Positions 1 to 49,133 of a stretch of DNA of 64,000 nt are shown here, piece after piece; within the stretch, counting starts at the first letter, position 1, and every line of letters starts with the position of its first letter. The translations under genes and the position numbers were made by a program. A model generated the notes under the pieces. It saw only the letters and a program-made list of their open reading frames with translations. It was not told where the DNA came from and did not search any database. This DNA is from Azolla caroliniana (taxonomy: Eukaryota; Plantae; Polypodiophyta). The DNA lies in NCBI GenBank assembly GCA_043228905.1, contig JBHGNT010000003.1, forward strand, positions 6,944,001-7,008,000, read 5' to 3'.

Positions 1-125
1 TTGGGTCCTTTTTTAAAATCCTTTACACATGCGGCACTCCTTTTTGTGAATCACCCTAATTTGTGTCATTTTTTTATGGACATTTCTCAAAATGTGACAT
101 ATTACCTGTTTTAAATGTCTCAATG
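1..125. mobile_element. Right-hand terminal inverted repeat of a TIR DNA transposon extending left out of the window
   Basis: The reverse complement (CATTGAGACATTTAAAACAGGTAATATGTCACATTTTGAGAA...GGAGTGCCGCATGTGTAAAGG) aligns over about 115 bp with 14588-14705 (CACAGGGACATTTGAAATAGGTAATACGTCGCATTTTGAGAA...GGGTGCCGCATGCATAAAGG). Similarity stops at the same terminal position in both copies. Confidence 0.6.
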
Positions 126-13171: not shown

Positions 13172-14068
13172 TGTCGGAGTAGTTGTGGTTCGTGCGGCGA
13201 AGTCGTAGGGACTAAGGTTAAAGGGAGTCGGCTATATATTTTATAAGGCTTTGTGCATTGATGTTAGGAAGATTAAGGATAAGAAGAATAAGAGTTAAAA
13301 GTATTGTGTGACAAAGAGACGAGCGTAGATTAGAGACAAAGATAATGTATGACTTAAGAAGTAATAGTATATGATATTAACATGATTTATATTAAGAAGA
13401 TAAAATTTTACCACAAAGATTAAGGATAATAGGAATAAAAGTTGAAAGTAATGTACGAGAGAGAGACGAGCAAGGATGAGAGATAGAGACAATGTATGAT
13501 TGAAGAGGTAAGCAAATAAGATAAGAATATGTATTATATTGAAAACCCAAAATTTTACCAAAGTTACAATGTTGAGCACAAAATGCGACTTTTCTTTTGT
13601 TGAACTATAGATTTGAACTCTTGACTCCTACTTTGAAACACGTGCCTTTTCTCCAAATGAGCTAATTGATTTGTTTGATTATTATTCTCTAAATTTCCCT
13701 TGATTAATTGATTACCCTGTTTTCCCTTTATTCATCCCTTAATTCCTTGCCTCTCTTTATAGGTTCTCTCATGCATATGATGATATGGGGGTGCATGGCA
13801 TGCATGTAATGCATGTGATGCATGATCGCCATTTGGCGCACATGCTTTACATGTGATGCATGATAGCCATCATGCTCATCTAAGCTCTAATGTATGAAGA
13901 TACACATGTCTTAACTATGGTGATAAAAATATAACTATAGAAAATAATTTATCCTAATGGTATATGCTTCGTCCTTGGTGTGTGAGGTTACGGGTTCAAG
14001 TCTCTCAAATGTTACTTAATACAATATTCAAGTTTTTTTTTATATCCTGAAGCAAATCCTTCACGACA
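13172..14068 (-). mobile_element. Solo LTR (Trp-primed Gypsy family) nested in the LTR of element K
   Basis: TGTCGG...CTTCACGACA termini; 4-bp flanks GCGT/GCGC; U3 homologous to the LTRs at 29087-30104 and 34465-35169. Confidence 0.75.
13950..14003 (+). promoter_or_regulatory. tRNA-like A-box/B-box module inside LTR (antisense to the element)
   Basis: TATCCTAATGG, 32 nt, GGTTCAAGTCT. Confidence 0.55.
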
Positions 14069-14587
14069 GCGCATGCACACACACACATTAACGTGAGATA
14101 ATTTGGTGAACCCGACATGAAAGAGCAGCAAGGGAGGATGACTACGACAAAGGAAGATTGAGAGGAAATGATGATAAGATTAGTGGAGGAAAATAAAAAA
14201 CGAGATGTGGCTCAACATGTCTCAAGAGCGTTGTCGAAAAAGTCGGTTGTTTTAATAAGGGCAACATCCCAGAATTTTTAAAAGCCTACAATGCCGAGAT
14301 GAATAACGAAGAGGTGAACAAGGCATAGAGGCTCCAATGTTTTTGTCAGGTGCTAGCCGTGGTGATGTACAAAGAGGTCAAGAAGCTTCAAGAAGCCCAC
14401 GACTCATGGGTATCCTTTGAGGAAGCGCTACTAGAGATGTACAATTACAAAGAAACAAAGGAAAGAAGTTAGTAGGAATTCAACCTATGGATGCCATCGA
14501 CAAAGACCCACCAAAGTACTATGCACACATTCCTAGAGTTCAAGCATCGTTTTGCTCAACTCTTGGAGTGGGAGCAAAGATTGGTAA

Positions 14588-15521
14588 CACAGGGACATTT
14601 GAAATAGGTAATACGTCGCATTTTGAGAATAGTCCGTCAAAAAAGGACACAAAATAGGTCAATTAAAAAAAAGGGTGCCGCATGCATAAAGGTTTTTCAA
14701 AAATGTGCCAGAATATATTGATTTTTAGCATGTCCAAAATTTTAGGGCTTTCCAAAAATGCCTAAATAATAAACATGCAAAACTTACAAAAAAATGTACA
14801 AAATTACTACCATCTATATTTATACATATTCGTGATTTAACATTTTGATGTAAAATACAATATTTACAATTCATGTATCTGAACTATCACTTCCCAATGC
14901 TATGCCATCATTTTCAAACCCATTCGATGAACTAGAAGACCCTTGTGAGGTCTCATCCTCATCATCAAAGGCAACCAATGGCTTGTCTTCATCCAATTGA
15001 AATCCAACCTCACCGTGATTATGAGACATGCTTCTTGTTTGTCTTTGAGTCGTGTCTAGAGCCCCATTTGGGATCTTCTCTTTTATTATCTTGATTGCAA
15101 TCTTTCTTAGGTCAGCTGTTTTGGTCAAGGAGAAGTCATACACTAGTATGTCAACATGATCTACTTTCAGAGTAGACATGCTCGATAGCTTCTTTCTTCT
15201 TCGCTTTTTGCTTGTGCCTCTGACATCCTTAACCATCTCTAAAGAGTACTTCCTAGTAAATGCATCAAGGGAAGAGGTGTGATACCAATGAACCACAACA
15301 GACTTAACTTGATTGCCTGGTTCATCCTTCATTATAATTTTAGCAATCCAAAAGGGATGACCCAACTCATCATCCCCAACTAATGTTGCAACCAACATCC
15401 CAACTTTTAGCTCAAGCAAATTGCCTTGCCATCTTGCCTCTGCCGTATGCAATATTCTTGGTCCCACATAAATATCTCTTTGTCATGGGTGAACTAGATT
15501 ATTGCCTTCAATATTATCTAT
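14588..15521 (-). mobile_element. Left end of a TIR DNA transposon (EnSpm/CACTA-like CACAG terminus or MULE-like GGGACA terminus; superfamily unresolved)
   Basis: It interrupts gag of element K. The terminal 115 bp are homologous in inverted orientation to 1-125. It contains the 3' end of a minus-strand ORF and is interrupted at 15522 by a Copia LTR. Confidence 0.6.
14871..15467 (-). pseudogene. C-terminal part of a putative transposon-encoded protein (PFWIAK...VHWY beta-rich domain, basic NLS-like KKRRRKK, acidic tail); 5' part lost
   Basis: 198-codon open frame with protein-like composition, ending about 280 bp inside the TIR. Upstream sequence is replaced by Copia A. Confidence 0.5.
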
Positions 15522-16474
15522 TGATTGATGGTGAGTAGTTGACACCATTGATGGTACACTCTAAAGAAATGAGGAGGCAAGAGTGGTTGTAATGCAGCGG
15601 AAGATGAGTGAGTGAGTGTGTGTGTGTGTGTCAAGATAGAGAGAGAGAGGGTGAGAGAGAGAGAGCTCTTACGACAGAGATAGACAAATTGTATATTAAC
15701 CAAAATTACATCAAAGCATAAAACATCCAACAACAACTAAGTTACAATACGTTGGTTTATATACCAACTAAGCTAGGGCAAGTGCCCTTTCTATTATTTA
15801 CAAAACTAGCCCAACATGTCCATGAGCTAGTGTGAACCCTATCTAAGGGAAGTTGTGTTCGACTCTCAACACGCCCCTTCGAGCACAACTTCTATCTGTC
15901 GAGAAGGTTGTTCGGTTCGTACTTCGACTTGTGTAGTCGGCTATGTTGCGTACTCGTTGCATGTTGCTTCCATGTCGCCTGTACCTGTACTCCCCCTCAA
16001 GTTCGGCAATGTAGATGTCGTGAGACCATGGTCCGATGCAAATTGCCCGAGCTTGTCGAATCCTAAGGCCTTTGTAAATATATCAGCAACTTGGAGGCGC
16101 GTACTGGTACATTGTAGATCGATCTCGCCGGCCTATACGCGCTCGCGGATGAAGTGGTAATGCACTTCGATATGTTTAGTCCGTGCGTGAAATACGGGGT
16201 TCCGTGCCAGTTAGATACTGCTCATGTTGTCGCAGTAGAGACAAATTGGATTGTTGATGGTAATGCCCAGATCCTTTAGTATGCGTTTAAGCCATACGAC
16301 TTCGCATGCGGCGATTGTTGCGCCCCTAAATTCAGCTTTCGTGCTCGATAGTGCGACTGTCGACTGTTTCTGGCTGCTCCAGGATATTGCTCCACTACCG
16401 AGGGAGGAGACAAATCTGGAGTTGGATCTTCTATCCGCTTTATAACCTGCCCAGTCCGTGTCGGTGTACCCTTC

Positions 16475-19400
16475 TGTTGGGAATCACCGCTTGGATTCAC
16501 CTTCTTCCCTCGGCCACAACCGAGTAATCGCGGATCAATGGAGCAGAAAATAGGAACCAAAAGAAGAGATACACGAGACGCGTTTACACAGGGATTAACG
16601 TGGAAAACCCTAGATGGGAAAAACCACGGGAGTACGAGACTCCAAACCAACACTATACAGAGAAGTATACAAAGGCGAGCTGCAAGGCAACGACCTTGAG
16701 CTCGCTGTCCTCGCCACAGGCGGCGGAAATACACAGAGGCGTCTACCTCTTTCTCTCTCGCGCTCTCTCTCTCTCTCTCTCTCACGGCTGCTCTCTCTTC
16801 ACTCCTCTAAAGTGGAAAAACAGAAAAATGAGAAGCAACAGTAAAACTGTTTGCCCTAAGTCATATTTATACTTATATGACTTTGGGCTATTTACAACTG
16901 TAGCCTCAGGGGCCCATAGCGAACATATTCACGGATATGTCCCTGCATCCGGATCGCTCTCCGGGTACATTCGTCATCCGGTACCGAAACCGGGATCTTC
17001 GTCATCCGGATCCGAAACCAGAACCGGGCTTGTCGGCATCCATCTCAGATATCCGACCATCCCATCCGAAAGGGACCGAAATCCCAACAAACTCCCCCTT
17101 CACTTCGGCATGGGATGTCTCTCCAATCCGATCCTCTTCCGGCATGCTTCCAGCTTGTCGGGTGTGAGCACCTTGGTCAGCATATCCGACCCGTTCTCGT
17201 CCGTGTGGATCTTCGTCAGCACGAACTCCTTGTCTTCTATCCTTTCCCGGATCCAGTGATATCTTCGCTGGATGTGCTTCGTCCGGGAGTGATAGGCCGC
17301 GTTCTTTGCAAGGTGGATTGCACTCTGACTGTCGCAGTAGAGTCGGTACTCCTCCTGCCGGATACCGAGCTCTCTAATGAAGTCCTTCATCCATATTATT
17401 TCCTTGCCGGCTTCAACAGCCGCCATGTACTCCGCCTCCGTGGTTGACAACGCAACCGTCTTCTGCAGCCTCGACTGCCATGAAACAGCTCCCCCTGCAT
17501 ACGTCATCACATACCCTGATGTGGACCGGCTGGTATCTGCATCAGCCGACATATCCGAATCGGTGAAACCGTCGAGTTCGGGTTTACCGGAGCCGAATCG
17601 GAGGCACACGTTTGCCGTGCCCTTCAGGTATCGGAGTATCCACTTGACCGCGGTCCAATGCTCTTTGCCGGGATTGCTCATGTACCGGCTCACCACTCCG
17701 ACTGCATATCCGATGTCCGGTCTCGAACACACCATGGCGTACATCAAGCTCCCGACGGCTGAGGCATACGGCACTTTCATAATATCCTCCTTTTCAGCCT
17801 TTGTCTTGGGACTTTGCTTGCTGGACAGCTTGCAGTTTGCCGGGAGGGTCGTTCCGACCGGTCTTGCTTCCGACATGTTGAACCGGTGAAGCACCTTCGT
17901 CACGTACTTCTCCTGTGACAGCCACAACTGCTTCTTCTTCCGGTCCCGGATGATGTGCATCCCTAGTATTTGCCTCGCCGGACCCAGGTCCTTCATTGAG
18001 AAGGTTCGGTGAAGAGCCTTCTTCAGCATCCGTATCTTGACCTGGTCCCGTCCGACGATCAACATGTCGTCCACGTACAGGAGAAGTATTAGAGAGTCTC
18101 CTCCTTCGAACTTCTTCACAAACACGCAGTGGTCGGACTGCGTTTTGAGGTACCCTTCGTCGGTCATGAAGGAGTCGAACTTCCGGTACCATTGCCGGGG
18201 AGCCTGCTTCAGTCCGTAAAGGCTCTTCTTCAACCGGCATACCAGGTGCTCCTTCCCTTTCTTCTCGAATCCTTCCGGTTGCTGCATGTAGATCTCTTCT
18301 TCGAGGTCACCGTGAAGGAATGCCGTCTTCACGTCCATCTGTTCTACCTCGAGATCCATGCTTGCCGCTATGCTCAGCACCGTCCGGATGGAGGTCATCT
18401 TCACTACCGGGGCAAATATCTCGTCGAAGTCGACGCCCTTCTTCTGCTGAAACCCCTTCACCACGATCCTGGCTTTGTATCTCGGGGGGTTTCCGGCATC
18501 TCCCGGTTTCAGCTTGAACACCCACTTGTTACGGAGTGCCCGTTTTCCTTTCGGCAACTCCACAAGTTCATATGTGTGGTTCTCATGCAGGGAATCCATC
18601 TCGTCCTGCATGGCACTCAACCACCTGCGGCTCTGGGTGTCATGCTTTGCTTCTTCAAAGCTCTCCGGCTCCCCCTCGTCGGTTAGCAGCACATGCTCTG
18701 GTTCCGGAAATCTCCGGGGGGCCCTTCTCTCTCTTAGAGGATATCTCCGTTCCGGAGCTTCGGTAACCGGTTCTTCCGATTCTTCTTCTTCATCCGAATC
18801 CATTTCGGGATTGGGATCGGGGCCGGTTCCGGTATCATTTTCGTCTTCTTCGGCCGGTTCTGTTTCTTCACCGTCTTCGGCCGGATCCTCGAGTGCTAAC
18901 CGGTCCCTTGCCGGTCGGGACTGCTCCTCGTAGAGTTGATCCTCACTGGTCGACTTGGAGCTCTTCATCTTTTTCTCCGACTCCCAGTCGGCGAGTGTCT
19001 TGTCCTCCATGAAGATGATGTCTCGACTCCTGAATATCTTCTTGTCGACCGGGTCCCATACTCGGTAGCCGAACTCGTCGTCGCCGTAACCGAGGAATAT
19101 GCATGGCCGGGTCTTCGGATCTAGCTTTCCTCTCCGGTCCTTTGCCACATGCACGTATGCGAGACACCCGAACACCTTCAGATGCCGGTAGGATACTTCC
19201 CTACCAGTCCACACTCTCTGCGGCGTGTCTCCGTCCAAAGGTACTGAGGGTGATCTGTTTATCACATATGTCGCCGTCGACATTGCCTCAGCCCAAAATC
19301 CCTTGGGTAATTTCGCATGTGCCAGCATACTCCGGACCCTCTCCATTATGGTCCGGTTCATCCTCTCGGCCAGCCCGTTCAGTTCCGGCGTCTTCGGCAC

Positions 19401-21826
19401 AGTAAACTCGAGTCGGATTCCCTTCGAGCGACAGTACTCCTGGAACTGCCCCCGGTATTCCCCTCCGTTATCCGCTCGTATCGCTTTCAGCTTCTTGCCG
19501 GATTCCCTTTCCACTCTCGCGTGGAGTTCTTTGAAGACGGACAACACTTGGTCCTTTGTCTTCATCGGTGCCGTCCACAGTCTTCGGCTATGATCATCTA
19601 TGAAAGTTACGAAGTACTGGGCTCCGCCATGTGACTTCGTTTCTACCTGACACACATCGGTGTGCACCAACTCCAATGGTGCGCTACGTCTCGTCGGTGG
19701 CCTTGAGTGGAAGGAGGTTCGGTTCTGCTTACCGGCCAGGCAATCGGTGCACTTCTCCAGGTGCACGTGCTTCACTGGAATAAGGTTGTCTTCTGCAAGC
19801 CTCTTCATCCCCTTCTCACTCATGTGGCACAGTCTTTTGTGCCACAGCTCACCGGCAGTGTCGGCTGCCACATTCAGCTCTTCCGGACATAACCAGGCAT
19901 TCATCAGGTACAGTGTGTTGACCTTCCGGGCCCGAGCCACTATCAAGCTCCCCTTGCTGAACTTCATGACACCGTTCCGGATGCTACCCGTGTAGCCTTC
20001 ATCATCTAGCCTCCCGGCCGAAATCAGGTTCAGTCGGACCTCCGGAACGTGTCGGACATTCTTCAGCAGCATTTTGCATCCGGTCGGGGTTGTCAACCAC
20101 ACGTCTCCTATGCCGGCGATCCGGCACGTACCTTCGTTTCCCATCCGAACACAGCCATGCTCGCCGGCTGTGTAGGATGAGAAGTATCTTCTCTCCGGGG
20201 TCAGGTGGAACGATGCTCCGGAATCGACCACCCAGGTCGTCTCATCGCCGGCAATGTTTAGTTCACCTTCTTCGGTGATGAGCATGATTTCTTCCTCGCT
20301 TGCCGCGAGTGCCATTGTTCCTTTCCGGTCCTGTTCTCGCCGATCCGAACCATTCCGGTCCGTGGCTCCCCGGTATGCACCGTTTCTCTCCGGTGACTTC
20401 TTCGAATCGGTGTTGTCGGTTCCAATGTCTTTTCGGTAATGCCGACAATTCTTTCGGAAGTGCCCCGGCTTCCCACAGTGGAAGCATGTGGGCCTTCCTC
20501 TTGACTGCGACCGGGTCCCCGACTTCTCCCGTCTTTGCGGACTCCGGTTCCATTGTCTTCCCCGATCCGATTCGGTAAACAATATCTTCGGGTCGGAGGC
20601 CGGTTCCTTATCTCTCCGACGCGCTTCTTCATTCAAAATACTTGTCTTTACCGTTTGTAAGGACAAGTTATCTTCGGTGCAGGAGGTGCTGAGAGTCACC
20701 ACCAAGTTCTCCCAGCTTTCTGGCAATGTACACATCAGGATGATGGCTTGCATTGCATCCTCCAACGGGAACTTGATCGCCGCAAGCTGATTCACGAATC
20801 CCATGAACGTGCTTACGTGTTCCACCATACTCTCGCCGTCCCGGTACTTGAGATTTACTATCTTCCTCATCAGGGAGGTCCGGTTCAACGCATTCTTCCT
20901 CTCGTAGAGGCCCGACAGCTTCTTCCACATCTCATATGCGTTGGTGTCGTTCGCCACATGTTGTAGAACGCTTACGTCGACATATTGTCGGATCGTCGCT
21001 ACGGCTTTCCGGTTCAGGAGCTTCCACTCCGACTCAAGTACCCCCTTCGGTATTTCCGACCTGTCAATCGGTTCGTACAGGTCCCGAACAATCAGAAGAT
21101 CCTCCATCTTGATCTTCCAGTCGGCGTAATTCTGTGCATTCAGCACCATCATCATCGGCTGCCCGCTGCCGCCGCCTTCCATTTTCTGCAACAGTCGCTC
21201 TGATACCAGATTGTTGGGAATCACCGCTTGGATTCACCTTCTTCCCTCGGCCACAACCGAGTAATCGCGGATCAATGGAGCAGAAAATAGGAACCAAAAG
21301 AAGAGATACACGAGACGCGTTTACACAGGGATTAACGTGGAAAACCCTAGATGGGAAAAACCACGGGAGTACGAGACTCCAAACCAACACTATACAGAGA
21401 AGTATACAAAGGCGAGCTGCAAGGCAACGACCTTGAGCTCGCTGTCCTCGCCACAGGCGGCGGAAATACACAGAGGCGTCTACCTCTTTCTCTCTCGCGC
21501 TCTCTCTCTCTCTCTCTCTCACGGCTGCTCTCTCTTCACTCCTCTAAAGTGGAAAAACAGAAAAATGAGAAGCAACAGTAAAACTGTTTGCCCTAAGTCA
21601 TATTTATACTTATATGACTTTGGGCTATTTACAACTGTAGCCTCAGGGGCCCATAGCGAACATATTCACGGATATGTCCCTGCATCCGGATCGCTCTCCG
21701 GGTACATTCGTCATCCGGTACCGAAACCGGGATCTTCGTCATCCGGATCCGAAACCGGAACCGGGCTTGTCGGCATCCATCTCAGATATCCGACCATCCC
21801 ATCCGAAAGGGACCGAAATCCCAACA
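16475..21826 (-). mobile_element. Intact, very young Ty1/Copia element B (Tnt1/Tork-like)
   Basis: 615-bp LTRs at 16475-17089 and 21212-21826 (TG...CA; one substitution seen). 5-bp TSD CCTTC (16470-16474 / 21827-21831). tRNA-iMet PBS TGGTATCAGAGC at 21197-21208. PPT at 17090-17100. Confidence 0.97.
17100..21182 (-). CDS. Copia B Gag-Pol polyprotein (1360 aa, uninterrupted)
   Basis: Zinc knuckle CFHCGKPGHFRKNC, protease VDSGAS, integrase (LWHKRLCH, VHTDVC, ADNGGEY, AERMNRT), RT LYVDDML, RNase H (FTDSDM, TEAEY, CDSQSA). Confidence 0.96.
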   Translation of the reverse strand: MEGGGSGQPMMMVLNAQNYADWKIKMEDLLIVRDLYEPIDRSEIPKGVLESEWKLLNRKAVATIRQYVDVSVLQHVANDTNAYEMWKKLSGLYERKNALNRTSLMRKIVNLKYRDGESMVEHVSTFMGFVNQLAAIKFPLEDAMQAIILMCTLPESWENLVVTLSTSCTEDNLSLQTVKTSILNEEARRRDKEPASDPKILFTESDRGRQWNRSPQRREKSGTRSQSRGRPTCFHCGKPGHFRKNCRHYRKDIGTDNTDSKKSPERNGAYRGATDRNGSDRREQDRKGTMALAASEEEIMLITEEGELNIAGDETTWVVDSGASFHLTPERRYFSSYTAGEHGCVRMGNEGTCRIAGIGDVWLTTPTGCKMLLKNVRHVPEVRLNLISAGRLDDEGYTGSIRNGVMKFSKGSLIVARARKVNTLYLMNAWLCPEELNVAADTAGELWHKRLCHMSEKGMKRLAEDNLIPVKHVHLEKCTDCLAGKQNRTSFHSRPPTRRSAPLELVHTDVCQVETKSHGGAQYFVTFIDDHSRRLWTAPMKTKDQVLSVFKELHARVERESGKKLKAIRADNGGEYRGQFQEYCRSKGIRLEFTVPKTPELNGLAERMNRTIMERVRSMLAHAKLPKGFWAEAMSTATYVINRSPSVPLDGDTPQRVWTGREVSYRHLKVFGCLAYVHVAKDRRGKLDPKTRPCIFLGYGDDEFGYRVWDPVDKKIFRSRDIIFMEDKTLADWESEKKMKSSKSTSEDQLYEEQSRPARDRLALEDPAEDGEETEPAEEDENDTGTGPDPNPEMDSDEEEESEEPVTEAPERRYPLRERRAPRRFPEPEHVLLTDEGEPESFEEAKHDTQSRRWLSAMQDEMDSLHENHTYELVELPKGKRALRNKWVFKLKPGDAGNPPRYKARIVVKGFQQKKGVDFDEIFAPVVKMTSIRTVLSIAASMDLEVEQMDVKTAFLHGDLEEEIYMQQPEGFEKKGKEHLVCRLKKSLYGLKQAPRQWYRKFDSFMTDEGYLKTQSDHCVFVKKFEGGDSLILLLYVDDMLIVGRDQVKIRMLKKALHRTFSMKDLGPARQILGMHIIRDRKKKQLWLSQEKYVTKVLHRFNMSEARPVGTTLPANCKLSSKQSPKTKAEKEDIMKVPYASAVGSLMYAMVCSRPDIGYAVGVVSRYMSNPGKEHWTAVKWILRYLKGTANVCLRFGSGKPELDGFTDSDMSADADTSRSTSGYVMTYAGGAVSWQSRLQKTVALSTTEAEYMAAVEAGKEIIWMKDFIRELGIRQEEYRLYCDSQSAIHLAKNAAYHSRTKHIQRRYHWIRERIEDKEFVLTKIHTDENGSDMLTKVLTPDKLEACRKRIGLERHPMPK

Positions 21827-24296: not shown

Positions 24297-25003
24297 TGTC
24301 GCGTTACTACACGCGTGCGTGTAGAATAAGGCGGGACCACGGGGGTCTTGGACTAGGGAGTAGATGGGAAGACGGGTATGAGCAAAGCGGAAGAGATCAA
24401 CACGGTAGAGAAGGTAGAAAGAGACAAGATTCAAGAAGCTATGTATATTACGGGCATGAAAGCCTCCATGCGATTACAACCGCGACCGCGTGGGCCGAAC
24501 TCAAAACATATGTAGAATGTAAACCCTAATCGGATAAGTAAAGAAAGAAATGAAGAAAACCCTAAAACGAATAGAAACCCTCGACCTAAGTGGTATACCT
24601 CTTCTCACTCAAAATAAGCAACCCTCTCAATGGTGCCCCTTCCTCTCCTTTTATAGCATAAGGAGAGAAAGGCGTTACAAAAAGGAGGGACTAAATATCC
24701 CCTTCATTCAATGGGGGGATATTTGCTTAGATTCTTGGAGGAAGGATTGATGGGGCCTTAACTCCCACTCCTCACACATACTACTATGCCCATTACTCAC
24801 CTCATACTCCTATGTACCTCTCTCTCTCTCATGTGGAAGTGCATATCACATTTATGCTTTAGGAATCTTGTGGTGCATTTCTTACAATTTACATTTGTTC
24901 TTATTAATATTTTACAAATACATCATGTGCGTGTGCAATGTTGCACACCCCGGTTTTGCTCGCTCCGCTCGGTTTCCCCTTACGGACGAAAATCTTCACG
25001 ACA
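24297..25003 (-). mobile_element. Solo LTR (Trp-primed Gypsy family) with non-matching flanks, a probable recombinant
   Basis: TGTCGCGTT...CTTCACGACA termini; left end similar to the LTR at 48970. The left flank is Copia A (GCGT) and the right flank is unrelated sequence (TCGT). Confidence 0.8.
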
Positions 25004-29086: not shown

Positions 29087-30104
29087 TGTCGTGAAGATTT
29101 TCGGCAATAGTGTGAAAATCCCATAAAACGTACAAAATCGAGTATGAATCATGTAATACAATAATTGTGAAGATAACATTTTTAATATCTAAGTACAAAA
29201 TGATGGAGGTTTCGAATGCACTTTATTACACGAGAAATGGACAACTAAATGTCAAGATATGAGGGTATAAAGTTTGTGAAAAGAAAAGAGAAAATTGTGA
29301 GATATCCCACATAGGCACGACAAATACGGCTCTCATCATATATAAGGTGGAGCAAAAGATATTATCTTTGTGTCTATGTGTGGAGCATAGAGAGTTCAAG
29401 GTAGCTTGAACTTAGAGTGGAGGTGGCTAGCTACTCGAAAAGGGTTTTGGCCAACCAAAACCGGACCGGCGATGGAGCCGGTGATCCGACGGCATCCGAC
29501 CGCAATCCGGCGGCGGCATGCGGCACCGGTATCCGGCGTCGGCGTCGGTATCCGGCACCGGCATCCGGCGGCGGCACCGGTATCCGGCGAACCGGGGACT
29601 AGATAAAATAAATATATAAAAATATATACATATACAAGGAGGGCAAGTATGGATTCGAACCTTGCACCTCCAAGTTAGGAGTCAAATGGCTTACCATTAA
29701 GCCATAGTATTTAGTTGAAATTATATTTCTATCATTGTAGTTTTACATGTAAATTCTCATCCATGAGTGCTAAAATGAGTGACATGGTTAGCATGCACCA
29801 CATGTAATACTTAAGCGCCAAATGGCAAACATGCAATTTACGCATGTCTTGTACCCTCACATGCATCATATGCATGAGAGCATCTATAAAAGAGGGAAGG
29901 GGGAGGAGAAAAACATGGTTTTTTTTATGAAAATTAAGAAGAAGAAATTCGTTATCAAATCAATCGTGTAATCTCATCTTCTCTCTTTCCCAATCTATCT
30001 TAAGTACTTTCTCGCCAAAGCTTGTATCGACTCTAAATCCTTCTGGTCCAGAACCCCGGCGGTTCCGCCTCACGATCCGCGCGTAGTGACGGATCTTCAC
30101 GACA
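29087..30104 (+). mobile_element. Solo LTR (1018 bp, Trp-primed Gypsy family) inside the protease region of Gypsy C
   Basis: 12-bp inverted termini TGTCGTGAAGAT...ATCTTCACGACA; 4-bp TSD GCGT; TATAAA near 29886; CCGG-rich repeats at 29460-29600; homologous to the LTRs of element D. Confidence 0.88.
29641..29706 (-). promoter_or_regulatory. tRNA-like (Arg-CCT-like) A-box/B-box module inside LTR
   Basis: Minus strand TATGGCTTAATGG TAAGCCATTTGACTCCTAACTTGGAGGTGCAA GGTTCGAATCC. The D-stem GGCTT/AAGCC pairs, there is a CTCCTAA loop and a consensus B-box. Acceptor and anticodon stems do not pair. Confidence 0.7.
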
Positions 30105-30407
30105 GCGTATGTGAGTGGTACACCCGTTGTTGGTCGCCGAAGAGGATTTTAATGGGCAGTGCGTGGCTCGTGGGAAGTTGTAATTGGGTGACTAAATCTG
30201 CGCTGATGGAAGAGATGCTGCTGCCGGAGTCGAGGAGAACCTCTTGGGTCGTGTGCTGGAGGCGGGCGATTGTGGTACAAACGGGCGAAGTTGATGAAGT
30301 GGAGGCGTGGACGTGCGGGGGTGGCTTGATCGTGGGAGAAACGGGAGAAGTTGAGGACGTGGAGACGTGGACGTGCGGGGGCGGCTCTCCCTGCGGCACC
30401 CCGCGCA

Positions 30408-31358
30408 TTAGTTTTCCGGGAGCTCAGAGAGGGAGGCAGCGTCAGCTAATTGGACGTTCTGCTTCTGTTGGTGATTCTGCCACTTTCGGCAGTGACGCCG
30501 AATGTGGCCATAGTTGTTGCAGTAGAAACATTTGGGGCGTCCCTGGCTGTCTCGTTCGGGCAATGCACGCTTGGCACGTAATTGCGTGTTCTGGATGTCG
30601 ATGTCCATGGGAGTGACGGCTGGTATAGTGTTTGTATGATCATGACTGAGATTACCTGGTGTGTGCATGTCGTGCGCGTCTGCAGCTTCGATGCGTTGGG
30701 CAGTGAGGATGGCTTCGTGTAGTGTCGTCGGGCCTTGATCGCGTACACGACGGCGGAGGTCATGTCGTATACACGGCCAGAAAAAAAACAACTTCATGTC
30801 CTCCGACATGTTGGCGTCAGCCCGGCGTAGGATCTGCACAAAACGAACCGCGAACTGGGTGATGGGTTCGCGTGGTTGTTGGGTAATTGACTCAAGTTGT
30901 TGTAGGGCTGTCTGGCGGGAGTCTTGATGAGCAAAATTCCGAATCATGGCTGCCCGTAACAGATCCCAGTCGTTGCGTGTCTCTTCGGGTTGTTGTACAA
31001 GCCATGTTGCCGCGATATTCTCGAGGAGTGTCTTCATCTCCATTGCCTTCCGAGGGTGTGGCCACTGGTGGTAACTGGCCACCATTTCGAAATGATCCAG
31101 CCAAGAGAGGACGTCTTCCGATGGTAGGCCGGAGAACGGTTTTGGGTGAACTCGAGAGTCCAGGAGATTTTGTTGTGGCTCGGATCGTGCTGAAAGAAAG
31201 GACAACATGGCTTGGTTAGTATGGTTAACTTGTAAAATGATGTTGGACAGAGCTTGAACCAGTTGGTCGATTGGCGATGTGGGCTGGTGTCCTTGATTGT
31301 GTTGTAGGAATTCCGGATTCATCGAGTTTGTGTTGCCGTCGTTGTTGTCGTGTTGCAT
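30408..31358 (-). CDS. Gypsy C Gag (316 aa)
   Basis: PKPFSG..EDV.SWLDHFE capsid-like region and zinc knuckle CFYCNNYGHIRRHC; ends ...PEN* at a slippery site. Confidence 0.9.
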   Translation of the reverse strand: MQHDNNDGNTNSMNPEFLQHNQGHQPTSPIDQLVQALSNIILQVNHTNQAMLSFLSARSEPQQNLLDSRVHPKPFSGLPSEDVLSWLDHFEMVASYHQWPHPRKAMEMKTLLENIAATWLVQQPEETRNDWDLLRAAMIRNFAHQDSRQTALQQLESITQQPREPITQFAVRFVQILRRADANMSEDMKLFFFWPCIRHDLRRRVRDQGPTTLHEAILTAQRIEAADAHDMHTPGNLSHDHTNTIPAVTPMDIDIQNTQLRAKRALPERDSQGRPKCFYCNNYGHIRRHCRKWQNHQQKQNVQLADAASLSELPEN

Positions 31359-31870
31359 CGTGGCGGGCGTTGTTGGGGTCGTGAGTTGGGGTGGCTTGGC
31401 CCGTCTTCTCCACCAAGATGTGAAATGCTCAAGATGTGAAATGCTCTCAAGAATAGCCTTCCTTTCATTATGTCTCAAGTTACATTTTATAGACTCTCTC
31501 TTAGCGTGGAGGGTGTTCTCCCGCTCCAATTAGCTCTACTAATTATGGGGCTTGGTGGGGGCCTAGTTTGGGTGTGGTGCATGAGGCTTGGTAGGGGCCT
31601 AATTTGGGTGTGGTCTATGTGTGGTGCATGGGGCTTGGTAGGGGCCTAATCTAGGTGTGGTCCATGTGACCACCACAGTATGATGTCAATAGTATTAAAA
31701 AAAATATCACAGATAGCTCGGGCGATCAGATGGTTAGTATGGTTGAACATCTTTGTGTGGGTGTTTACGATGCAATTACGAAGAAGACGGCTCAGGCACA
31801 CGTGAATTAAAGAAATGTTGTCAATTATATCATGTGCCTAGCTATGACAAAAAAGCTATGCCATAGCATG

Positions 31871-32150
31871 GTTGTCGTCGCATGTGAAGCCGTTTGGCTC
31901 AAAAGGATATTGAAGGATCTACGATTCCCATCAAGGATCTGATTCTCTTGTATTGTGATAACATGAGCAATATTCATCTGACCCGAAACCCTATCTTTCA
32001 CGCTCAGACTAAGTGCATTGAGGTGCACTATCATTTCGTTCGAGAGAGGGTATTGATCGAAGATGTCGACATGCAACACATCAATATGAACCTGCAGACA
32101 ACCGACATCTTCACAAAGGCCCTGGGAGCCGACAAGCTGCAAGCCACTTA
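31871..32150 (+). mobile_element. Isolated Ty1/Copia RNase H fragment
   Basis: ACEAVW...LYCDNMSNIHLTRNPIFHAQTKCIEVHYHFVRERV...DIFTKALG. Confidence 0.85.
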
Positions 32151-35002
32151 AATTGACTAGGCCAATCTTCTTGAAATTTTGGTTTAGCCTAGCTAACTCT
32201 ATTCCATGGTATGTAATATATGCATTCGTCTGCTCAAACATTCATTTTCATATGTTTGCAAACAGATGTGTATATTATCCAAACATTCTTCTTCTTCTTC
32301 TTCTTTTGACTTCTTTACTTTTCTTTTTGCTCAGAGAGGGGTGAATGTTCTACACTGTGCACATCTTCTCCCGCCATCAGTTCCTGCACATCATCGTGAT
32401 GCAAACCTCCCTTGCTCTCACATCCAACCTTGAACGTTGACCTACATCCTTCATCTTGCAAGTAGAGCTTCAAAGCCTTGTACACTTGGTTCTGTTTAAC
32501 GTAAGTAGAGAGCATAACATTCCATGTAACTACATACCGGTGAGGCAATGAATAAATCACATTCTCTGCCTCAAATATATCTCAACATTTGTTATACATA
32601 CTATGGAAGAACCCACGTGAACATCAGAACAATAACCATTTTTGCGAGCATGTTCATGTATCTTCTTTCCTTCCTCAAGTGAATCTATGGTAGCACAAGC
32701 TTTGAAGAGGCAAACAAATGTATGTAAAAAGAAACGTGCAGAAGCAAGTATGAAGACCGAACAGAAGAGAGGAAACTCAGGTTTAATGGAGAGCTTGGGC
32801 TTACGCAGTATACGCGGGAGAGACAGAGAGAGTGAGAGAGAAGACACAAAAACTATATTCAACAATAATACTCAGTCTATACATAAGACGTGCTCAGTGA
32901 ACACTTTTATACAAGCCCTAGAAGGATTGACCGAAGTACTGACAGTACTTCAATGCTCATCAAGAGCCCCTACACTAACTCCCAAATATATTCCTCACGG
33001 AATATCTTTCCTAACGACCTCCCGGTTTACGCACTCGGCCTAGCCGATCGGTCCCAACCGATCCTGTCCTCGGCTTCTTCAGCCGATCCGGCCGATGTTG
33101 AGCTTGTCTCTCAACACTCCCCCTCAAGCTCAACTTGAGGCTCTTCGGGATCTTCACAGCACCGGTTCCTCCTGGCTTCTCGCCTCGCTCGCGCTCCTCG
33201 ACCTGTTCGACTCCGCGCGCTTCGACCCTTCCAGTCGGCTTGTCTACTCATGTGGCCCTCATCAGCTCTTCTGTTGTTGCGGTGTTGACGCTTCTTCTGC
33301 TGCCTTTTCTTCCACTTGGGCCTCGGTTTATTCAGCGTGTCTGAATCAAACATCCGAACCGACTCGGCTACCTACGATCGGTCTTCGCTCTCATCCGAGT
33401 TGCCTGTCTCCAACTCGTCTTCGGTCTTCTCGCCCTCGATGGCGTCATCTTACCCATGCATGGTTGGCTTCGGCTCTCTCCTTCGGTTGCTCCCCTTCTG
33501 TCTGCTTCCGAACTTTTCCGTAGGTCCGCCCTCGGCTTCTTCAGCCGATCCGATGTCGAACTTGTCAACCGACTCGGTGTCACGGTGTCCGCTCCTTTCC
33601 TGTTGCCTTGCTTGGTCGTTCGGGATTGTTCTCCCCCTCAAGTTCGGCACGTCAAGGTGACGCAACCCGAGCGCCCCTGAGAATTGCCGCAACTTGTCCA
33701 GACCAAGAGGCTTGGTGAAGATGTCGGTAGCCTGCCGATTCGTCAGAACGTACTGAAGTTCGACTTCACCGGAAAGGACACGCTCACGGACGAAATGGTA
33801 GTGCACCTCAATGTGCTTGGTCCGTGCGTGGAAGACGGGGTTTTTCGCGAGCTCGATGCTGCTGAGGTTGTCGCAGTAGATCGTCGTCGGATCTGACACC
33901 TCCTCTTGCAAGCCCTTAAGAAGCCGCTTCAACCATATGGCTTCGCATGTCGCGACAGCCGCTCCTCGGTACTCAGCTTCGGTGCTCGACAGTGCAACTG
34001 TCGGCTGCTTCTTACTGCTCCACGCGATCGCGGCACTCCCGAGGGAGAACGCGTATCCGGACGTGGATCGGCGATCGGCGGCGTTGCCAACCCAATCAGC
34101 ATCTGTGTAGCCGACTAACTGCGCGGCTGCACCGGTCCGACATAACAGTCTGCGGTCCTTAGTGCCGCTTATGTACCGAAGTACGCGTTGCGCACACTGA
34201 AGGTGCTCCTCGGTAGGTCGCGCCATGAACTGACTGATCACTCTGACCGGATAACTGAGGTCGGGTCGGGTGATGGTCAAGTATATGAGGCTTCCGACAA
34301 TTTGTCGGAACGTCGTCGGGTCGCATACCTTTCCCGTATCGGGACGAAGAATGACTGTTCTTTCCAGAGGAGTCGAGATGGACTTACAGTCGGCCATCCC
34401 GAGTTTGAAGAGCATACTCAGCACGTAATGACGTTGGCTAATCAATATGCCTTCGGGGGTACGGTGTCGAGCCCTTCGGCTCCGGATCGTTGCGTGAGTC
34501 GGGTGGGAACCGCCGAGGTTTTTGACTAGGAGGAAGAGGAATACAACTTAAGGCTAGATATGAATAGTGGAAAGAGAAGTAAGACAGCAATCTCGTGAAT
34601 CCCACGAGTTTAGTGTAATTAAAACAATATTTAGATTATAAGAGCAATTAGATGGCAAAATTCGTGAATCCCACGAATATATTAGATTGATCAAAAACTT
34701 GTATATTAATCAACAACCATATACATATTTTTCTCCTCCTTATATAAAGATAGAAGAGGCTAAGCATGGCTTCATGCTTTTTCACCTAAAGTGCCCATGC
34801 ACACTAAATGTGCATGTGATGCTTTGTCATTTCCTAAATATAGGGCTCATGCACGCTAGATGTGCATGAGTCACTTTTAATGTCACGTGTAAATAAAATA
34901 TTCACACTCTAAAGAATACATGATTTTTACCTTTTAATAAAGGTATGTGTAAATAAAGGTCTTATACGTATTAAATCTATATTTATAATACTAAAGATAA
35001 AT

Positions 35003-35056
35003 TATTACAATGGTAAAGTTGGGGTTTATCTACGTGGAGGTGCATGGTTCGAATCT
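35003..35056 (+). promoter_or_regulatory. tRNA-like A-box/B-box module in the 3' LTR of element D
   Basis: TATTACAATGG, 32 nt, GGTTCGAATCT. Confidence 0.6.
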
Positions 35057-38000
35057 TGCCCTATGCACGTGATAATTTCTTTTGATATATTATTTATTTA
35101 TTTATATGTATCTAAAATCGGATATATTATTTTATGGTTTTCACGTAGTGTGTGGAATACACTACGACATTCGCCCCCTCCGAACCCGCACATCCTCCGG
35201 TATGTGCCGAAGTTCTCGATCCCCCATATCCGTCTTCACCCAAAGCTTCCTCCGATTCTCCCCTTATGTCGACTATGAGTTGTAATTCACTTTCTTCGCT
35301 TCCCGCATCACCGTGGTCTTCGTCCGATTGCTCCTCGTTGTCGGCCTTGGCTTGGATCACATAGGGTTTGTCGTCGGTCCGCTTCTTGAAAATCTTCACC
35401 CGCTTCCCGGCTATAGGCACTCGTAGTATTGTTCCATCCAACTCGGACAGTCGGTACGTTCCGTTGTCGAAGACTTTCCGAACCTCGTATGGCCCGAACC
35501 ACCTTTTCGCGAATTTCCGCATCGTCGTATGTTGATGGTCCAAACTACTGTCATAGACGATCACCCAATCTCCTTCTTCAATCCTCCTCGGTCGTAGTCG
35601 GTGCTTTGTGTCGAACCGGCTTTTGTTCCTTAATCGTGCTTCTTGTTGTCGGCGTATTGCTTCCGCTATGTCTGCCGGTCTTCCCTCTAGTTGTCGTATC
35701 CGGACCGCTAGTAGTTCTTCCCGGCTCATCTCTTCCTTCCACGGTAGCACTGTCCATGTTGCGATCGCGGTTTCCGTCGGCATTACCGGTGCTTGTCCGG
35801 TCATGAGTTCTGCCGGCATGTAACCGGTTATGGAACTATGCGTCGTCCGATCCGCCCATAGTGCATACGGAAGCATCTGTGGCCAGTCCTTCACCTTTCC
35901 ATCGCATGCCTTCGCAAGTGCTTTCACGATCGGACTATGTCCTCGTTCGATTTTCCCGTTGGCCTTCGGATTGTATGCCGTTGTCAGCGATAATCGAACT
36001 CCGTGTTTAGCGAAGAATCCCCTAGCTTTGTCTGAGTCGAGTTCTCCCCGGTCCGCAATCACTTGTCCTACGCACCCGTACCTGCAAAATACTTCCTCCA
36101 TAGCTTGAATCGCATCGATCTTTGTTGGTGACGGTCTTCGGCCGTAGGGCCCACATAGATGTCCGACCACCAATATTTCTTCTTGCCCGAATGCCGATTT
36201 CTCCCCGGAAAGTGTTAGGTGCACATCTTCTAGCTTTCGCAACACTTTCTCGCAATCATGAATATGGTCGACCACGAACTTTCGGCATCCCCGATCATCC
36301 ATAGTCTCATCTTTTTCTTCTACCGCGCATCCTTTCATCGGAATGTCATCGAGGAACGGCATCGTTATCTCCGGAATGCAGTCTCGAAGCACCTTGTTCA
36401 TCGTGTTCATCATATGAGCAACCGAGTTTGTCGCTCCTTGTGGTAGTGTGCACATTCGGACTAATCCTATCGGTGTTCGCATGGTTGTGATGTCTCGGCT
36501 CTCCACGGCTAGTTGGAATTGGTCATACCCCGAGTATAGGTCTCCGATGGAGTATATCGCACGACCGGCAAAAGCTTCCGCAAATTCGTCCACTATCGGA
36601 CCGACTCCCGAGTTCCGGATCGTGACCTTATTCACCGGTTGCAAGTCTTGGATAAATCGGAGTGACCCATTCTTCTTCGGAACCGTAAACCATCAATTTG
36701 AGTACGGAGCAGTTGATGGCTCTAGAATCCCCATCGCCACCTTCTCCTTGAGCAAGTCAATGACTTTCGGAATATGCGCTCGTGGCACCGGAATCGGCTT
36801 CAGGTTCCACGGTACATGGTCAATCGTGAAGATCACCATCGGCTCCACTGTTCTCGGATCGACGCACCCTATCTCCCCTGATGTAAATGCAAATGCTTTG
36901 CCGTATTGCTCCAACATCTCGCGAAACCGTTCTTCTTCTTTTTGTAATAGGAACCCACCTCCACCGATCCGAAGTTTCTTCCGGGTCTCATCCGTGAAGG
37001 CATGTCCGATATCCACGGTCTTCCGAAGTGTCGGATCTCCCGAGACTTCTTTCCTCTTTTGTTCGCTATCGGCGGGTAGTGGTCCCGCGGCCGGTTTCAC
37101 CTTCTTCTCCACGGTCTTGTATTTCGTACTTACCATTGCTTCTTCTTTACGGAGCGTATCCGGCTCCATTTTCGCAATGATCTCGTACATCTCGACCGAT
37201 TCCACCGGGACTACCCGGTTCCCTTGGCTTTTATCTTCCGCAAGTTCTTCAAGTCGTTGTAGCGTGCTCCCATAGAACACTTCTTCGACTATCCCCACGA
37301 TTTCTTCATCTTCTTTTATTATTGATGCCGACCGCAACTTATCCTCCACTTGTCGGTATCCTTTCTTCAATCCTCCGGTTACGGTTGTGTACGTAGATGC
37401 CCCATCCGGACCTATTCGTACATGTTTTGCTCCGAGAGTTTTCTTCCTGTGTGGGGTATCAGGGCTTCTCGGACTATCACTTCCCCACTCCGCAACAGTC
37501 CGCTTTAAAAATCCATTCTCACTTGGGACAAGAGTTCCCTCTTGTTCCTTTCGTGATTTGCCGGCACTGTTAGGAATTGGACGGATTTCCCACCGTTTTG
37601 GCTCCGAATTCGCGCAAAAGCCGCACCGCTATCGAGCACCTTCGTCTCCATCCGTGATGCCGTGATAAAGGGTTGGCCGAGGATGACGGAATGTGAAACC
37701 TCATCTTGCACGAAGAAATTTTGGTCGATCTCGACATCCCCGATCTTCACCGTCACATCCGGACAAGCCGCAAATAGATCTTCCGTTGCTTTGGTGGCCG
37801 CCCGAATCTTCCATCCATGGTTGGTGTTAATAGGCCACTTCCCCTTCCGGTAGAACTCCTTGGACATCAAGTTGATCTCCGATCCGTGATCAATCAATGC
37901 TAGCACGGGTTCTTTGATGTTGCCGATTCGGACCGGAGTCTCCGTAGTCGCGCGTGCCCAATGTGGCCTTGTATAGTGGGAGTTCGGAATTTCGTCCTCC

Positions 38001-40123
38001 ACTTCGGTGTCGTTCATTAAAACGGTGTTCGCATTCACCCTTGGAGCATTTTCCTCCGTACTTTGTCTTTTTCGCTTCACGAGATCCACGAGAAGATCGT
38101 GGAACTCCTTCTTTGCTATTCCGAGTAGCTCCCGAAGCGAGAAATCTACCCAGCTATCCAAGATTCTTTCCTCGAACACTCTTTTCAAGTCGGTTTGTTG
38201 TTCTATGTCCGAGGCGAGCTTGAATGCCGGAGTCACCTTTTCTTTTCCCTTACCTCCGGAGTTCCAGCTTTCCGGTATCTTTGATGGCCCGGCCGCATCC
38301 TCCGTGCGTCGTCGTTTCTCGTCCACATACACCTTATGCAATTGACACAGGGCGTATACGCTATTCTTGTCGATAGGGCACTCCCATCCCGTAGCTTCTC
38401 GGACGCCTTCCGCGGTGCTTCGGATCTCGTTGGAGTCGGTTTTCTCGGTGTTTTCTAGAACTTCCGGCCAAAAAGACGTCTTTGCTCTCGATGACTCCCC
38501 GACACATATTCCCGCGGTTGTCGCATAGTTGCTTCTCGCCGCCAATTCCTCCTCGAGCACCTTCTTCATGCCGCCTTTCCGGAAGTTCGGTCAGAGTGGC
38601 TTCCGAGAGTCCATCGAATGAATCCGGTTTCCCTCATAGTAGATGAGATCCCGCCGTAGCGCCTCCTTATGCTCGTCGCAATCCCTCCGATCGTGTTCGG
38701 CGCTATCGCACCATATGCACCGTCGGTCCGTATACTTGGAGCTTGTGGGGCGGTCATCCGACTTCTTCACCATCGCGATCTTCAGATTCTCCATCTCCTT
38801 CAATAGTTGCTCCACCGTAGATACATCAATCCCCTTCTCGGTTGTAGTCTCTCGAGCCCTCAGTTGATGGTCTTCCAATCCGGTTCTGGGTTTCGGAATC
38901 GGTTCCGAAACCCTCTTTTCCTCGTCGGCAAGCCATTGCCCCCTCTTCGTGTATCGCGCGACGATATCCCGCACGCTTTCCCATGTTTCGGTGAGGCCGC
39001 TCTCCGTGGTCGTGTCCTCCAAGAGCACTCCGAGATCTTTCCGGTCCCGGACGTCCACGGCTCGCAAGAACATGATCACCTTGTCCGGTACGAGGATAGC
39101 TTGATCTCTCGCGGACAACCTCCCGAACCGGCTTTCGAATGCCGAAAACACATCAACAACCTTCAATCCCTTGTCCGGCGTCTCCACCCAATCTTCGAAT
39201 CCCCTTCACGTCGCCTTGGAGGAATCCTCGATGGCGAACGTCCTCTTTAGCTCTACTTCAAACGCCTCCCATGTCGGATTTTGATGTCGTAGCCCATGGA
39301 TGCTTGCTTGAAGCCCGTCGGTCGCCACCCGGTTGAAGGACGTCACTTGCAGTCCTTCCGATATTCCGCACCGTAGCATCTCCGCCTTGTAATCCCGAAG
39401 ATACCGCGACACGTCTTTCCCGTTGAATTGCCCGTTTCGTTGCACGAGCCGCTCCACTGAGGCCGCTATCTCCGACATCGCGCGTTGTTCTTGTAGCATG
39501 CGCTCGAACATCATCATCATGTTGCTAGCCTCTTGTTGATTTTCCATCTCCTTGCCACCCGTTTTCACGTCGGGTTCACCAACTGTGTCGAGCCCTTCGG
39601 CTCCGGATCGTTGCGTGAGTCGGGTGGGAACCGCCGAGGTTTTTGACTAGGAGGAAGAGGAATACAACTTAAGGCTAGATATGAATAGTGGAAAGAGAAG
39701 TAAGATAGCAATCTCGTGAATCCCACGAGTTTAGTGTAATTAAAACAATATTTAGATTATAAGAGCAATTAGATGGCAAAATTCGTGAATCCCACGAATA
39801 TATTAGATTGATCAAAAACTTGTATATTAATCAACAACCATATACATATTTTTCTCCTCCTTATATAAAGATGGAAGAGGCTAAGCATGGCTTCATGCTT
39901 TTTCACCTAAAGTGCCCATGCACACTAAATGTGCATGTGATGCTTTGTCATTTCCTAAATATAGGGCTCATGCACGCTAGATGTGCATGAGTCACTTTTA
40001 ATGTCACGTGTAAATAAAATATTCACACTCTAAAGAATACATGATTTTTACCTTTTAATAAAGGTATGTGTAAATAAAGGTCTTATACGTATTAAATCTA
40101 TATTTATAACACTAAAGATAAAT

Positions 40124-40177
40124 TATTACAATGGTAAAGTTGGGGTTTATCTACGTGGAGGTGCATGGTTCGAATCC
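40124..40177 (+). promoter_or_regulatory. tRNA-like A-box/B-box module in the 5' LTR of element D
   Basis: TATTACAATGG, 32 nt, GGTTCGAATCC (consensus B-box). Confidence 0.62.

Positions 40178-49100: not shown

Positions 49101-49133
<33 letters not shown>

What the first reader, a model, noticed from the sequence alone, without database searches (positions are those of the whole stretch)
13950..40177. tRNA-like Pol III promoter conserved inside U3 of three diverged LTRs
Seen: the LTRs at 13172-14068, 29087-30104 and both LTRs of element D each carry an A-box-like ...AATGG and a B-box GGTTC(G/A)A(A/G)TC. The two boxes are separated by exactly 32 nt in every case (13960 to 13993, 29694 to 29661, 35013 to 35046, 40134 to 40167), although the spacer sequences differ strongly. 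A GAGGT variable-loop-like motif is also shared. The module is always antisense to the element and roughly 200-300 bp upstream of the LTR TATA box. The copy at 29641-29706 still resembles tRNA-Arg(CCT). Established: 32 nt is the canonical G19-to-G52 distance in class I tRNA, A/B boxes bind TFIIIC and can act as chromatin barriers, and Cassandra TRIMs carry 5S-derived Pol III promoters in their LTRs. Inference: this Gypsy lineage captured and retains a tDNA-type promoter, either as an insulator against silencing or as a source of antisense Pol III RNA.
Basis: partly seen in the sequence, partly recalled or inferred. Interest (0 to 1): 0.7.

Follow-up and report, generated by a model that had tools for sequence, protein, structure and literature searches.

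The report
tRNA-promoter relic in moss retrotransposon LTRs
Several subfamilies of a moss-type jumping gene carry, backwards in their end repeats and just upstream of their own predicted promoter, the two promoter boxes of a tRNA gene without the tRNA fold; this likely is a docking site for the RNA polymerase III factor TFIIIC that would help keep the element's promoter open, though no binding or RNA has been shown.

Summary
In detail: four LTRs carry A box, 32 nt, B box, antisense to the element, 180-256 bp from the TATA-like box. They are Phygy-type Ty3/gypsy LTRs (Trp PBS, NCGN 4-bp TSD). Among 19 distinct LTR copies picked by the upstream flank alone, all have the A box in place, 17 a recognisable B box, 12 an intact core; no TSD or empty site was found. 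Between subfamilies, invariant promoter positions are 85% identical against 34% in the anticodon arm. The cloverleaf is gone (6-14 of 21 pairs; real tRNAs 19), and the Arg(CCT) call cannot be upheld. Limits: 21 of 31 related LTRs lack the module; within a family the boxes are no better kept than the upstream flank; C56T is common; no RNA data. New here: a second, sense-oriented A/B module in LTR A and a third type in relatives. Best reading: a retained tDNA-type DNA element that likely binds TFIIIC beside the Pol II promoter. Closest known: Helenus TRIMs; this differs in sitting antisense in TATA-bearing LTRs, including a protein-coding family. The scan noted similar LTR modules on other DNA (probably fungal and animal).

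The parts
13172..14068 (-). Solo LTR A (Phygy-type, element sense minus), TSD GCGT/GCGC, inserted in the U5 end of another Trp-PBS element
   Evidence: PBS-linked relative in L041
13943..14013 (+). Type-1 tRNA-like module in LTR A (tRNA positions 1-72); A box 13950-13960, B box 13993-14002; T9 run at 14033-14041
13756..13761 (-). TATA-like box of LTR A (predicted Pol II promoter), 188 bp from the A box
13610..13664 (-).
   Evidence: also in the L041 relative, A box 12/12 identical, B box 7/10
29087..30104 (+). Solo LTR B (Phygy-type, sense plus), TSD GCGT/GCGT, inserted in an unrelated Ty3/gypsy element
29641..29711 (-). Type-1 module in LTR B; A box 29704-29694 (0 mismatches), B box 29661-29652; T5 run at 29622-29618
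29885..29890 (+). TATA-like box of LTR B, 180 bp from the A box
34465..40290 (-). Element D: Phygy-type Ty3/gypsy, TSD ACGG/ACGG, LTRs 34465-35169 and 39586-40290 (5 differences in 705), gag-pol with frameshifts and an internal deletion between RT and integrase
34996..35066 (+). Type-1 module in the 3' LTR of D; A box 35003-35013, B box 35046-35055; T4 run at 35080-35083
40117..40187 (+). Type-1 module in the 5' LTR of D; A box 40124-40134, B box 40167-40176
34741..34746 (-). TATA-like box of the D 3' LTR, 256 bp from the A box (same in the 5' LTR)
39564..39581 (-). Primer binding site of D (tRNA-Trp type by my recall of the tRNA 3' end); not the source of the module

Best explanation
The module is a tRNA- or SINE-derived A-box/B-box unit that several Phygy-type LTR subfamilies carry backwards in U3, and it likely works as DNA: it would bind TFIIIC about one nucleosome upstream of the LTR's predicted Pol II TATA box and so help keep that promoter open or shielded from flanking heterochromatin in the few copies that transpose. 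Shown: geometry, position, orientation, loss of the cloverleaf, better retention of boxes than of spacer between subfamilies, patchy distribution. Inferred: tRNA/SINE origin, selection on the replicating masters, TFIIIC binding. Untested: any chromatin or transcriptional effect. A divergent 75-110 nt Pol III by-product ending at the oligo-T inside U3 is possible. It cannot make the genomic RNA, since it points away from the element.
For: Between four subfamilies (13 copies) the 11 invariant promoter positions are 0.85 identical, other positions 0.48, positions 24-42 0.34, permutation p=5e-5. A against B, homologous by flank alone: upstream flank 138/188, positions 22-42 5/21, and all 11 invariant positions shared. 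B against group G: the module is the only internal segment BLAST aligns. Flank-picked copies: A box in place in 19 of 19 distinct copies, B box recognisable in 17, spacing 32 in 15 (33 in one, 34 in one). Contigs of four organism labels laid on module B show no indel at 10% or more; box changes are G9A, T13C, A15G, G57A (consensus-compatible) and C56T, against 9 of 21 spacer sites. No cloverleaf and no consensus fold (-1.13 kcal/mol). TATA-to-A-box distance 180-192 in 9 of the 14 copies with a TATA-like match, across B and G whose intervening DNA does not align. T4 or longer run 13-50 nt after the B box in 13 of 13 complete type-1 copies. Two further A/B module types occur in related LTRs. Helenus shows the same box-kept, tRNA-lost pattern (PMC10886601); barrier activity of TFIIIC-bound tDNA is recalled knowledge, B2 SINE boundaries are in the abstract of PMC8136502.
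Against: 21 of 31 LTRs with both ends found have no module, so it is dispensable for the lineage. Within families the boxes are no better kept than the upstream flank: 5 of 32 against 6 of 49 variable sites; within-group identity of the B box 0.73-0.88 against 0.75-0.93 upstream; A-family pair 18/21 against 115/131. The box-versus-spacer contrast in the read data is not significant (Fisher p=0.11 and 0.054). The promoter-damaging C56T holds 23-48% of depth and 7 of 19 copies have a damaged or lost B-box core; this fits decay after insertion but amplification of dead-box lineages is not excluded. Plant tDNA upstream signals are mostly missing: CAA in 1 of 15, TATA at -37..-26 in 7 of 15 (positions from PMC3082873). 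Methylated, heterochromatic tDNAs are silent in Arabidopsis (PMC7544208 passages). The position 43-47 motif is as conserved as the boxes and is not a canonical box position.
Confidence: 0.45

Rival explanations
1. Passenger relic: one or more old SINE or tRNA-gene fragments landed in U3 and were spread between LTR subfamilies by U3 recombination; box conservation reflects selection in the source SINE or tRNA family and ascertainment, not use in the LTR.
For: Absent from 21 of 31 LTRs; carriers not one gag clade; within-family decay like the flank; LTR A's module differs from B at 48-51 (0/4) and 22-42 (5/21) despite a 73% identical flank, as if from another donor; homology between subfamilies starts at the A box (loose ends at 29699-29704).
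Against: Same place, orientation and spacing in four subfamilies; no TSD (0 of 15 above shuffles) and no empty site; only one free-standing SINE-like A/B pair (L035, contig end) seen outside LTRs in about 270 kb; spacer turns over while its length stays.
Confidence: 0.27
2. The product matters: Pol III makes a short RNA antisense to U3 that regulates the element (siRNA source, decoy, or packaging/RT modulator), comparable to Pol III units in foamy virus U3.
For: A box, B box and downstream oligo-T form a complete unit inside U3; an antisense RNA matches its own family whatever the spacer. Precedent: PMC3993851 (passages).
Against: No conserved hairpin; terminator position varies from 13 to 50 nt; upstream CAA/TATA mostly missing.
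Confidence: 0.15
3. The conserved letters serve Pol II or RNA processing rather than TFIIIC: host factor sites or a 5' splice-site-like signal on the divergent strand, exapted from an old tRNA-like sequence.
For: Positions 19-24 read GTAAGT or GTGAGT in 7 of 14 type-1 rows (splice consensus recalled); 43-47 is conserved outside the canonical boxes; U3 is rich in TGCA motifs.
Against: Does not explain the fixed 32-nt spacing or the B-box letters T54, T55, A58, C61, nor that tolerated changes follow the A/B consensus.
Confidence: 0.09
4. Landing pad: the module attracts elements that integrate upstream of Pol III promoters.
For: Earlier unchecked notes on probably fungal genomes (e1-10420559, e1-10702772).
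Against: No insertion breaks the flank just upstream of the A box in any of 19 distinct copies (offsets +1 to +6); nested inserts in the window lie elsewhere.
Confidence: 0.04

Closest known systems
Helenus TRIMs (TRIMp3; Kojima 2024, PMC10886601; parts 1-5 of 6 of the text read, supplements not seen)
   Same: tRNA-derived sequence inside LTRs with boxes A and B conserved and the tRNA mostly non-functional; PBS and PPT; SINE-into-LTR origin proposed. The paper also says 'not a few LTRs' in Repbase hold tRNA-like parts.
   Different: Helenus is non-coding, 311-1263 bp, and its promoter is thought to make the template RNA; the only plant case is Selaginella (5-bp TSD). Here LTRs are 650-1200 bp with a TATA-like box, D is 5.8 kb with gag-pol, the TSD is 4 bp, and the module is antisense and ends inside U3. 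The paper expects autonomous partners to rely on Pol II and not share such LTR sequence.
Cassandra TRIM (as described in PMC10886601; original paper not read)
   Same: Pol III promoter in both LTRs of a plant retroelement
   Different: 5S-derived type 1 promoter, sense, transcribes the element; non-coding; here tRNA-type, antisense
Phygy clade of Ty3/gypsy (Neumann et al. 2019, PMC6317226; passages read)
   Same: Short non-chromovirus bryophyte elements, NCGN target preference, 4-bp TSD class; tRNA-Trp among non-chromovirus primers
   Different: No Pol III module is mentioned in the passages read; the clade was described from Physcomitrella patens only
Foamy virus U3 Pol III miRNA cassettes (PMC3993851; passages read)
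   Same: Pol III promoter elements and terminators inside U3 of a Pol II-driven, coding LTR element
   Different: Those carry conserved hairpins and non-canonical boxes and yield miRNAs; here tRNA geometry, no conserved hairpin, no RNA shown
tRNA-derived SINEs and tDNA/TFIIIC barriers (mouse B2: abstract of PMC8136502; yeast barriers recalled)
   Same: A/B boxes at tRNA spacing acting as DNA elements
   Different: No SINE body, no TSD; moves only as part of an LTR

Membership tests
Helenus (TRIMp3) | tRNA-like sequence with boxes A and B in the LTR | tested here: met
Helenus (TRIMp3) | Short non-coding TRIM, about 0.3-1.3 kb | tested here: not met
   D is 5.8 kb with gag-pol; non-autonomous relatives L029 and L052 are about 3 kb
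Helenus (TRIMp3) | Pol III promoter placed to transcribe the element | tested here: not met
   type-1 module is antisense with oligo-T inside U3; the second module of LTR A is sense but is followed by T4 about 25 nt on in the window copy
Helenus (TRIMp3) | PBS and PPT | tested here: met
Cassandra | 5S rRNA-derived sequence in the LTR | tested here: not met
   no 5S match in Rfam scans
Phygy (Ty3/gypsy) | 4-bp TSD of type NCGN | tested here: met
   ACGG/ACGG, GCGT/GCGT, GCGT/GCGC; feature from PMC6317226
Phygy (Ty3/gypsy) | RT-RH-INT order, no chromodomain, short element | tested here: met
   88-89% relatives of D's RT carry RT, RNase H and integrase Pfams and no chromodomain family is listed; D itself has an internal deletion
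Phygy (Ty3/gypsy) | Placement with REXdb Phygy references in an RT tree | not testable with these tools
   no REXdb sequences at hand; nearest named relatives are Riccia proteins at 77-78%
tRNA gene | Cloverleaf and tRNA call | tested here: not met
   ARAGORN 0, Rfam none, 6-14 of 21 pairs against a mean of 19.2 in 117 real tRNAs
tRNA-derived SINE insertion | TSD and empty-site allele | tested here: not met
   longest flanking repeat not above shuffles in 15 of 15; no flank-matched copy without the A box among 19; an old insertion could have lost its TSD
tRNA-derived SINE insertion | Free-standing copies of the same head in the host genome | tested here: inconclusive
   no host genome held; all strong profile hits examined in about 270 kb lie in LTRs; loose ends shown are LTR-like, 133 rows not shown
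Functional type 2 Pol III promoter | TFIIIC/Pol III occupancy or transcript | not testable with these tools
   needs ChIP or stranded small-RNA data
Functional type 2 Pol III promoter | Plant upstream TATA (-34 to -29) and CAA (-7 to -3) | tested here: inconclusive
   TATA 7 of 15, CAA 1 of 15; not all active tDNAs have them (PMC3082873)

The most novel reading that the evidence does not exclude
Bryophyte Phygy retrotransposons have repeatedly (at least three module types, both orientations) recruited tRNA-gene promoter boxes into their Pol II LTRs and swap them between gag lineages as a portable TFIIIC-bound anti-silencing cassette: a self-carried chromatin barrier in a protein-coding plant retrotransposon family.
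Probability: 0.25. Interest if true: 0.75.

Novelty: new variant of a known kind. Interest (0 to 1): 0.47.

Why it matters
If the module binds TFIIIC, a coding plant retrotransposon carries its own tDNA-type barrier or promoter aid, which bears on how LTR elements stay active in methylated, nested TE islands, and gives a direct test of extra-transcriptional TFIIIC function in plants, in mosses where gene targeting is routine. Sister subfamilies with and without the module are a natural control. It also widens the TRIMp3 idea: Pol III boxes in LTRs need not drive the element. If it is a passenger, it still marks U3 exchange between subfamilies whose Gag proteins are only about 28% identical.

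Tried and rejected
Host genome: none held. ARAGORN and Rfam: no tRNA at any module. Protein-based locus search in viral contigs: nothing. RNA: no RNA holder listed; run X20 is probably DNA; this says nothing on expression. Primer-tRNA capture: module positions 59-76 match the tRNA end implied by the PBS at only 4-9 of 18 letters; rejected. Donor isotype: positions 34-36 read CCT 4, CTT 3, ATC 2, GTC 2, TCT 1, TTG 1 in 13 rows, best matches to phage tRNAs are 11-18 of 34 free columns and scatter over isotypes (no plant tRNA set was available); unresolved. Conserved RNA fold: none. TSD: none. In one search the row L041b was set one base off and has spacing 33; I left it out of the anticodon count and of the permutation test. 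One search showed only 40 of 133 variable rows, so I use it only for abundance. Gag trees: one search used 22 rows; one search dropped non-homologous, internally deleted and duplicate rows (13 kept), and L093, L101, L114 were labelled by family, not by a seen module. Earlier-finding look-ups by sequence and by relatives were empty. Literature: searches returned no paper on a tRNA-type module in moss or Phygy LTRs; the library lacks most subscription journals and Repbase notes, and the Helenus supplements were not read.
Full report
Setting. The window is a nest of LTR retrotransposons. Element D (34465-40290, minus) is a Ty3/gypsy element with 705-bp LTRs differing at 5 sites, TSD ACGG, a PBS and a PPT. 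Its RT has relatives at 88-89% with RT, RNase H and integrase, and named relatives in the liverwort Riccia at 77-78%; D itself has frameshifts and lacks RNase H and the start of integrase. LTR A (13172-14068) and LTR B (29087-30104) are solo LTRs with 4-bp TSDs GCGT/GCGC and GCGT/GCGT. NCGN targets are the mark of the Phygy clade (PMC6317226, passages). A moss host is my inference; no genome is held.

Observation. In tRNA numbering all copies read T8, A14, G18-G19-T20-A21, G43-A-G-G-T47 and the B box 52-61. The same geometry is that of real class I tRNAs: 117 of 120 viral loci fetched by that spacing are ARAGORN tRNAs. A generic A/B scan gave 25 hits against 1-5 in shuffles. Orientation is antisense in all four. 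TATA-to-A-box distances are 188, 180 and 256 bp.

Not a tRNA. ARAGORN and Rfam call nothing. Modules form 6-14 of 21 cloverleaf pairs with shuffle means of 8-10; only LTR A reaches p=0.022, one of 16 modules tried; real tRNAs average 19.2. RNAalifold on 12 copies finds no real consensus fold. Position 48 is a purine in all B, G, D and type-2 copies but a pyrimidine in 116 of 117 real tRNAs and in LTR A, which points to shared ancestry of the former and perhaps another donor for A. The anticodon position varies, so Arg(CCT) cannot be upheld.

Distribution. Of 31 LTRs with both ends found by motif, 9 carry the antisense module, 1 a sense module, 21 none (a few ends may be false). Window LTRs at 24297-25003, 48970-49829, 50372-51025 and 45120-45634 also lack it. 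Carriers fall in groups A, B, D and a new group G. Picking copies by the upstream flank alone gave 21 hits, 19 distinct: the A box is in place in all, the B box recognisable in 17, the core intact in 12. No TSD and no empty site were found. The D and B families are abundant in contigs of four organism labels. In a gag N-terminal tree of 13 rows, carriers D and G are rejected as one clade (p-AU 0.030; with B-like rows 0.00015; short alignment, three rows labelled by family only). So the module is either old and often lost or moved between lineages with U3.

Conservation. Between groups the 11 invariant promoter positions are 0.85 identical, other positions 0.48, the anticodon arm 0.34 (p=5e-5); gapped flanks are 0.50 and 0.44. 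Between B and G the module is the only internal segment that aligns. Between A and B the flank is 138/188 identical, positions 22-42 5/21. Contigs laid on module B show no indel at 10% and box changes that mostly respect the consensus. Against this: within families boxes are no better kept than the upstream flank, the read-based contrast is not significant (p=0.054-0.11), C56T reaches 23-48% of depth, and three of the four groups were picked for their boxes. The pattern fits selection on the few replicating masters with neutral CpG decay afterwards, but does not prove it.

More modules. LTR A holds a second A/B pair, sense to the element, downstream of its TATA-like box (13664-13610), present also in a relative in L041. 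L061 and L056 hold a sense-oriented pair in U3 about 90 bp upstream of a TATA-like box. At least three arrangements thus occur in this clade.

Mechanism. The type-1 unit points away from the element and meets an oligo-T 13-50 nt after the B box, so it cannot make the genomic RNA as Cassandra does and as Helenus is thought to (PMC10886601). Boxes and spacing are kept while RNA structure is lost, which points to a DNA-binding site. Its place, 180-192 bp from the TATA-like box in 9 of 14 copies, lies between the host flank and the promoter of a 5' LTR. I take TFIIIC binding with a promoter-opening or barrier effect as most likely (0.45); a passenger relic (0.27), a functional antisense RNA (0.15), a Pol II or splice-type signal (0.09) and a landing pad (0.04) are the rivals. 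Weak upstream plant tDNA signals (PMC3082873, passages) favour binding over strong transcription; silencing of methylated tDNA clusters (PMC7544208, passages) suggests most genomic copies are inert.

Comparison and novelty. It resembles Helenus in what is conserved but fails its size and orientation features. PMC10886601 (parts 1-5 of 6 read) notes many Repbase LTRs with tRNA-like parts and one plant Helenus, in Selaginella. PMC7466625 (passages) on P. patens transposons has no hit for 'polymerase III' or 'SINE'. Searches found no description in moss or Phygy LTRs; unseen supplements and Repbase notes could hold one. Unchecked notes of this scan report LTR-borne tRNA-like modules on other DNA. 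Verdict: a real feature, a new variant of a known kind, function inferred only. Interest 0.47.

Noticed in passing
window 13610-13664 (minus); L041 2056-2110: Second tRNA-type A/B module in the LTR A family, sense to the element, downstream of the TATA-like box, convergent-free back to back with the U3 module.
   Followed up: partly
L061 755-808; L056 120-173: A further A/B module type, sense to the element, in U3 of long two-TATA LTRs; shares purine 48 with the type-1 module.
   Followed up: partly
L021 1-2959; L024: A Phygy-type LTR family lies beside U2 and U1 snRNA genes in both loci; may be one locus or a target preference.
   Followed up: no
L035 about 30-82 (minus): Free-standing A/B pair at spacing 32 at a contig end next to a CT microsatellite, possibly a SINE head.
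   Followed up: no
L029, L052: Group G includes about 3-kb non-autonomous elements: one with gag only, one with an unrelated short ORF.
   Followed up: partly
window 29652-29665 region and relatives (L052): The B box is nearly palindromic, perfectly so over 18 bases in L052, so it scores on both strands.
   Followed up: no
window 24333, 30043, 34506, 39627, 49004: A 24-base U5 motif is shared by otherwise unalignable Phygy LTRs and finds relatives efficiently; function unknown.
   Followed up: partly
window 16475-21826, 52833-63213: Several near-identical copia elements, some tandem and sharing LTRs, are nested here.
   Followed up: no
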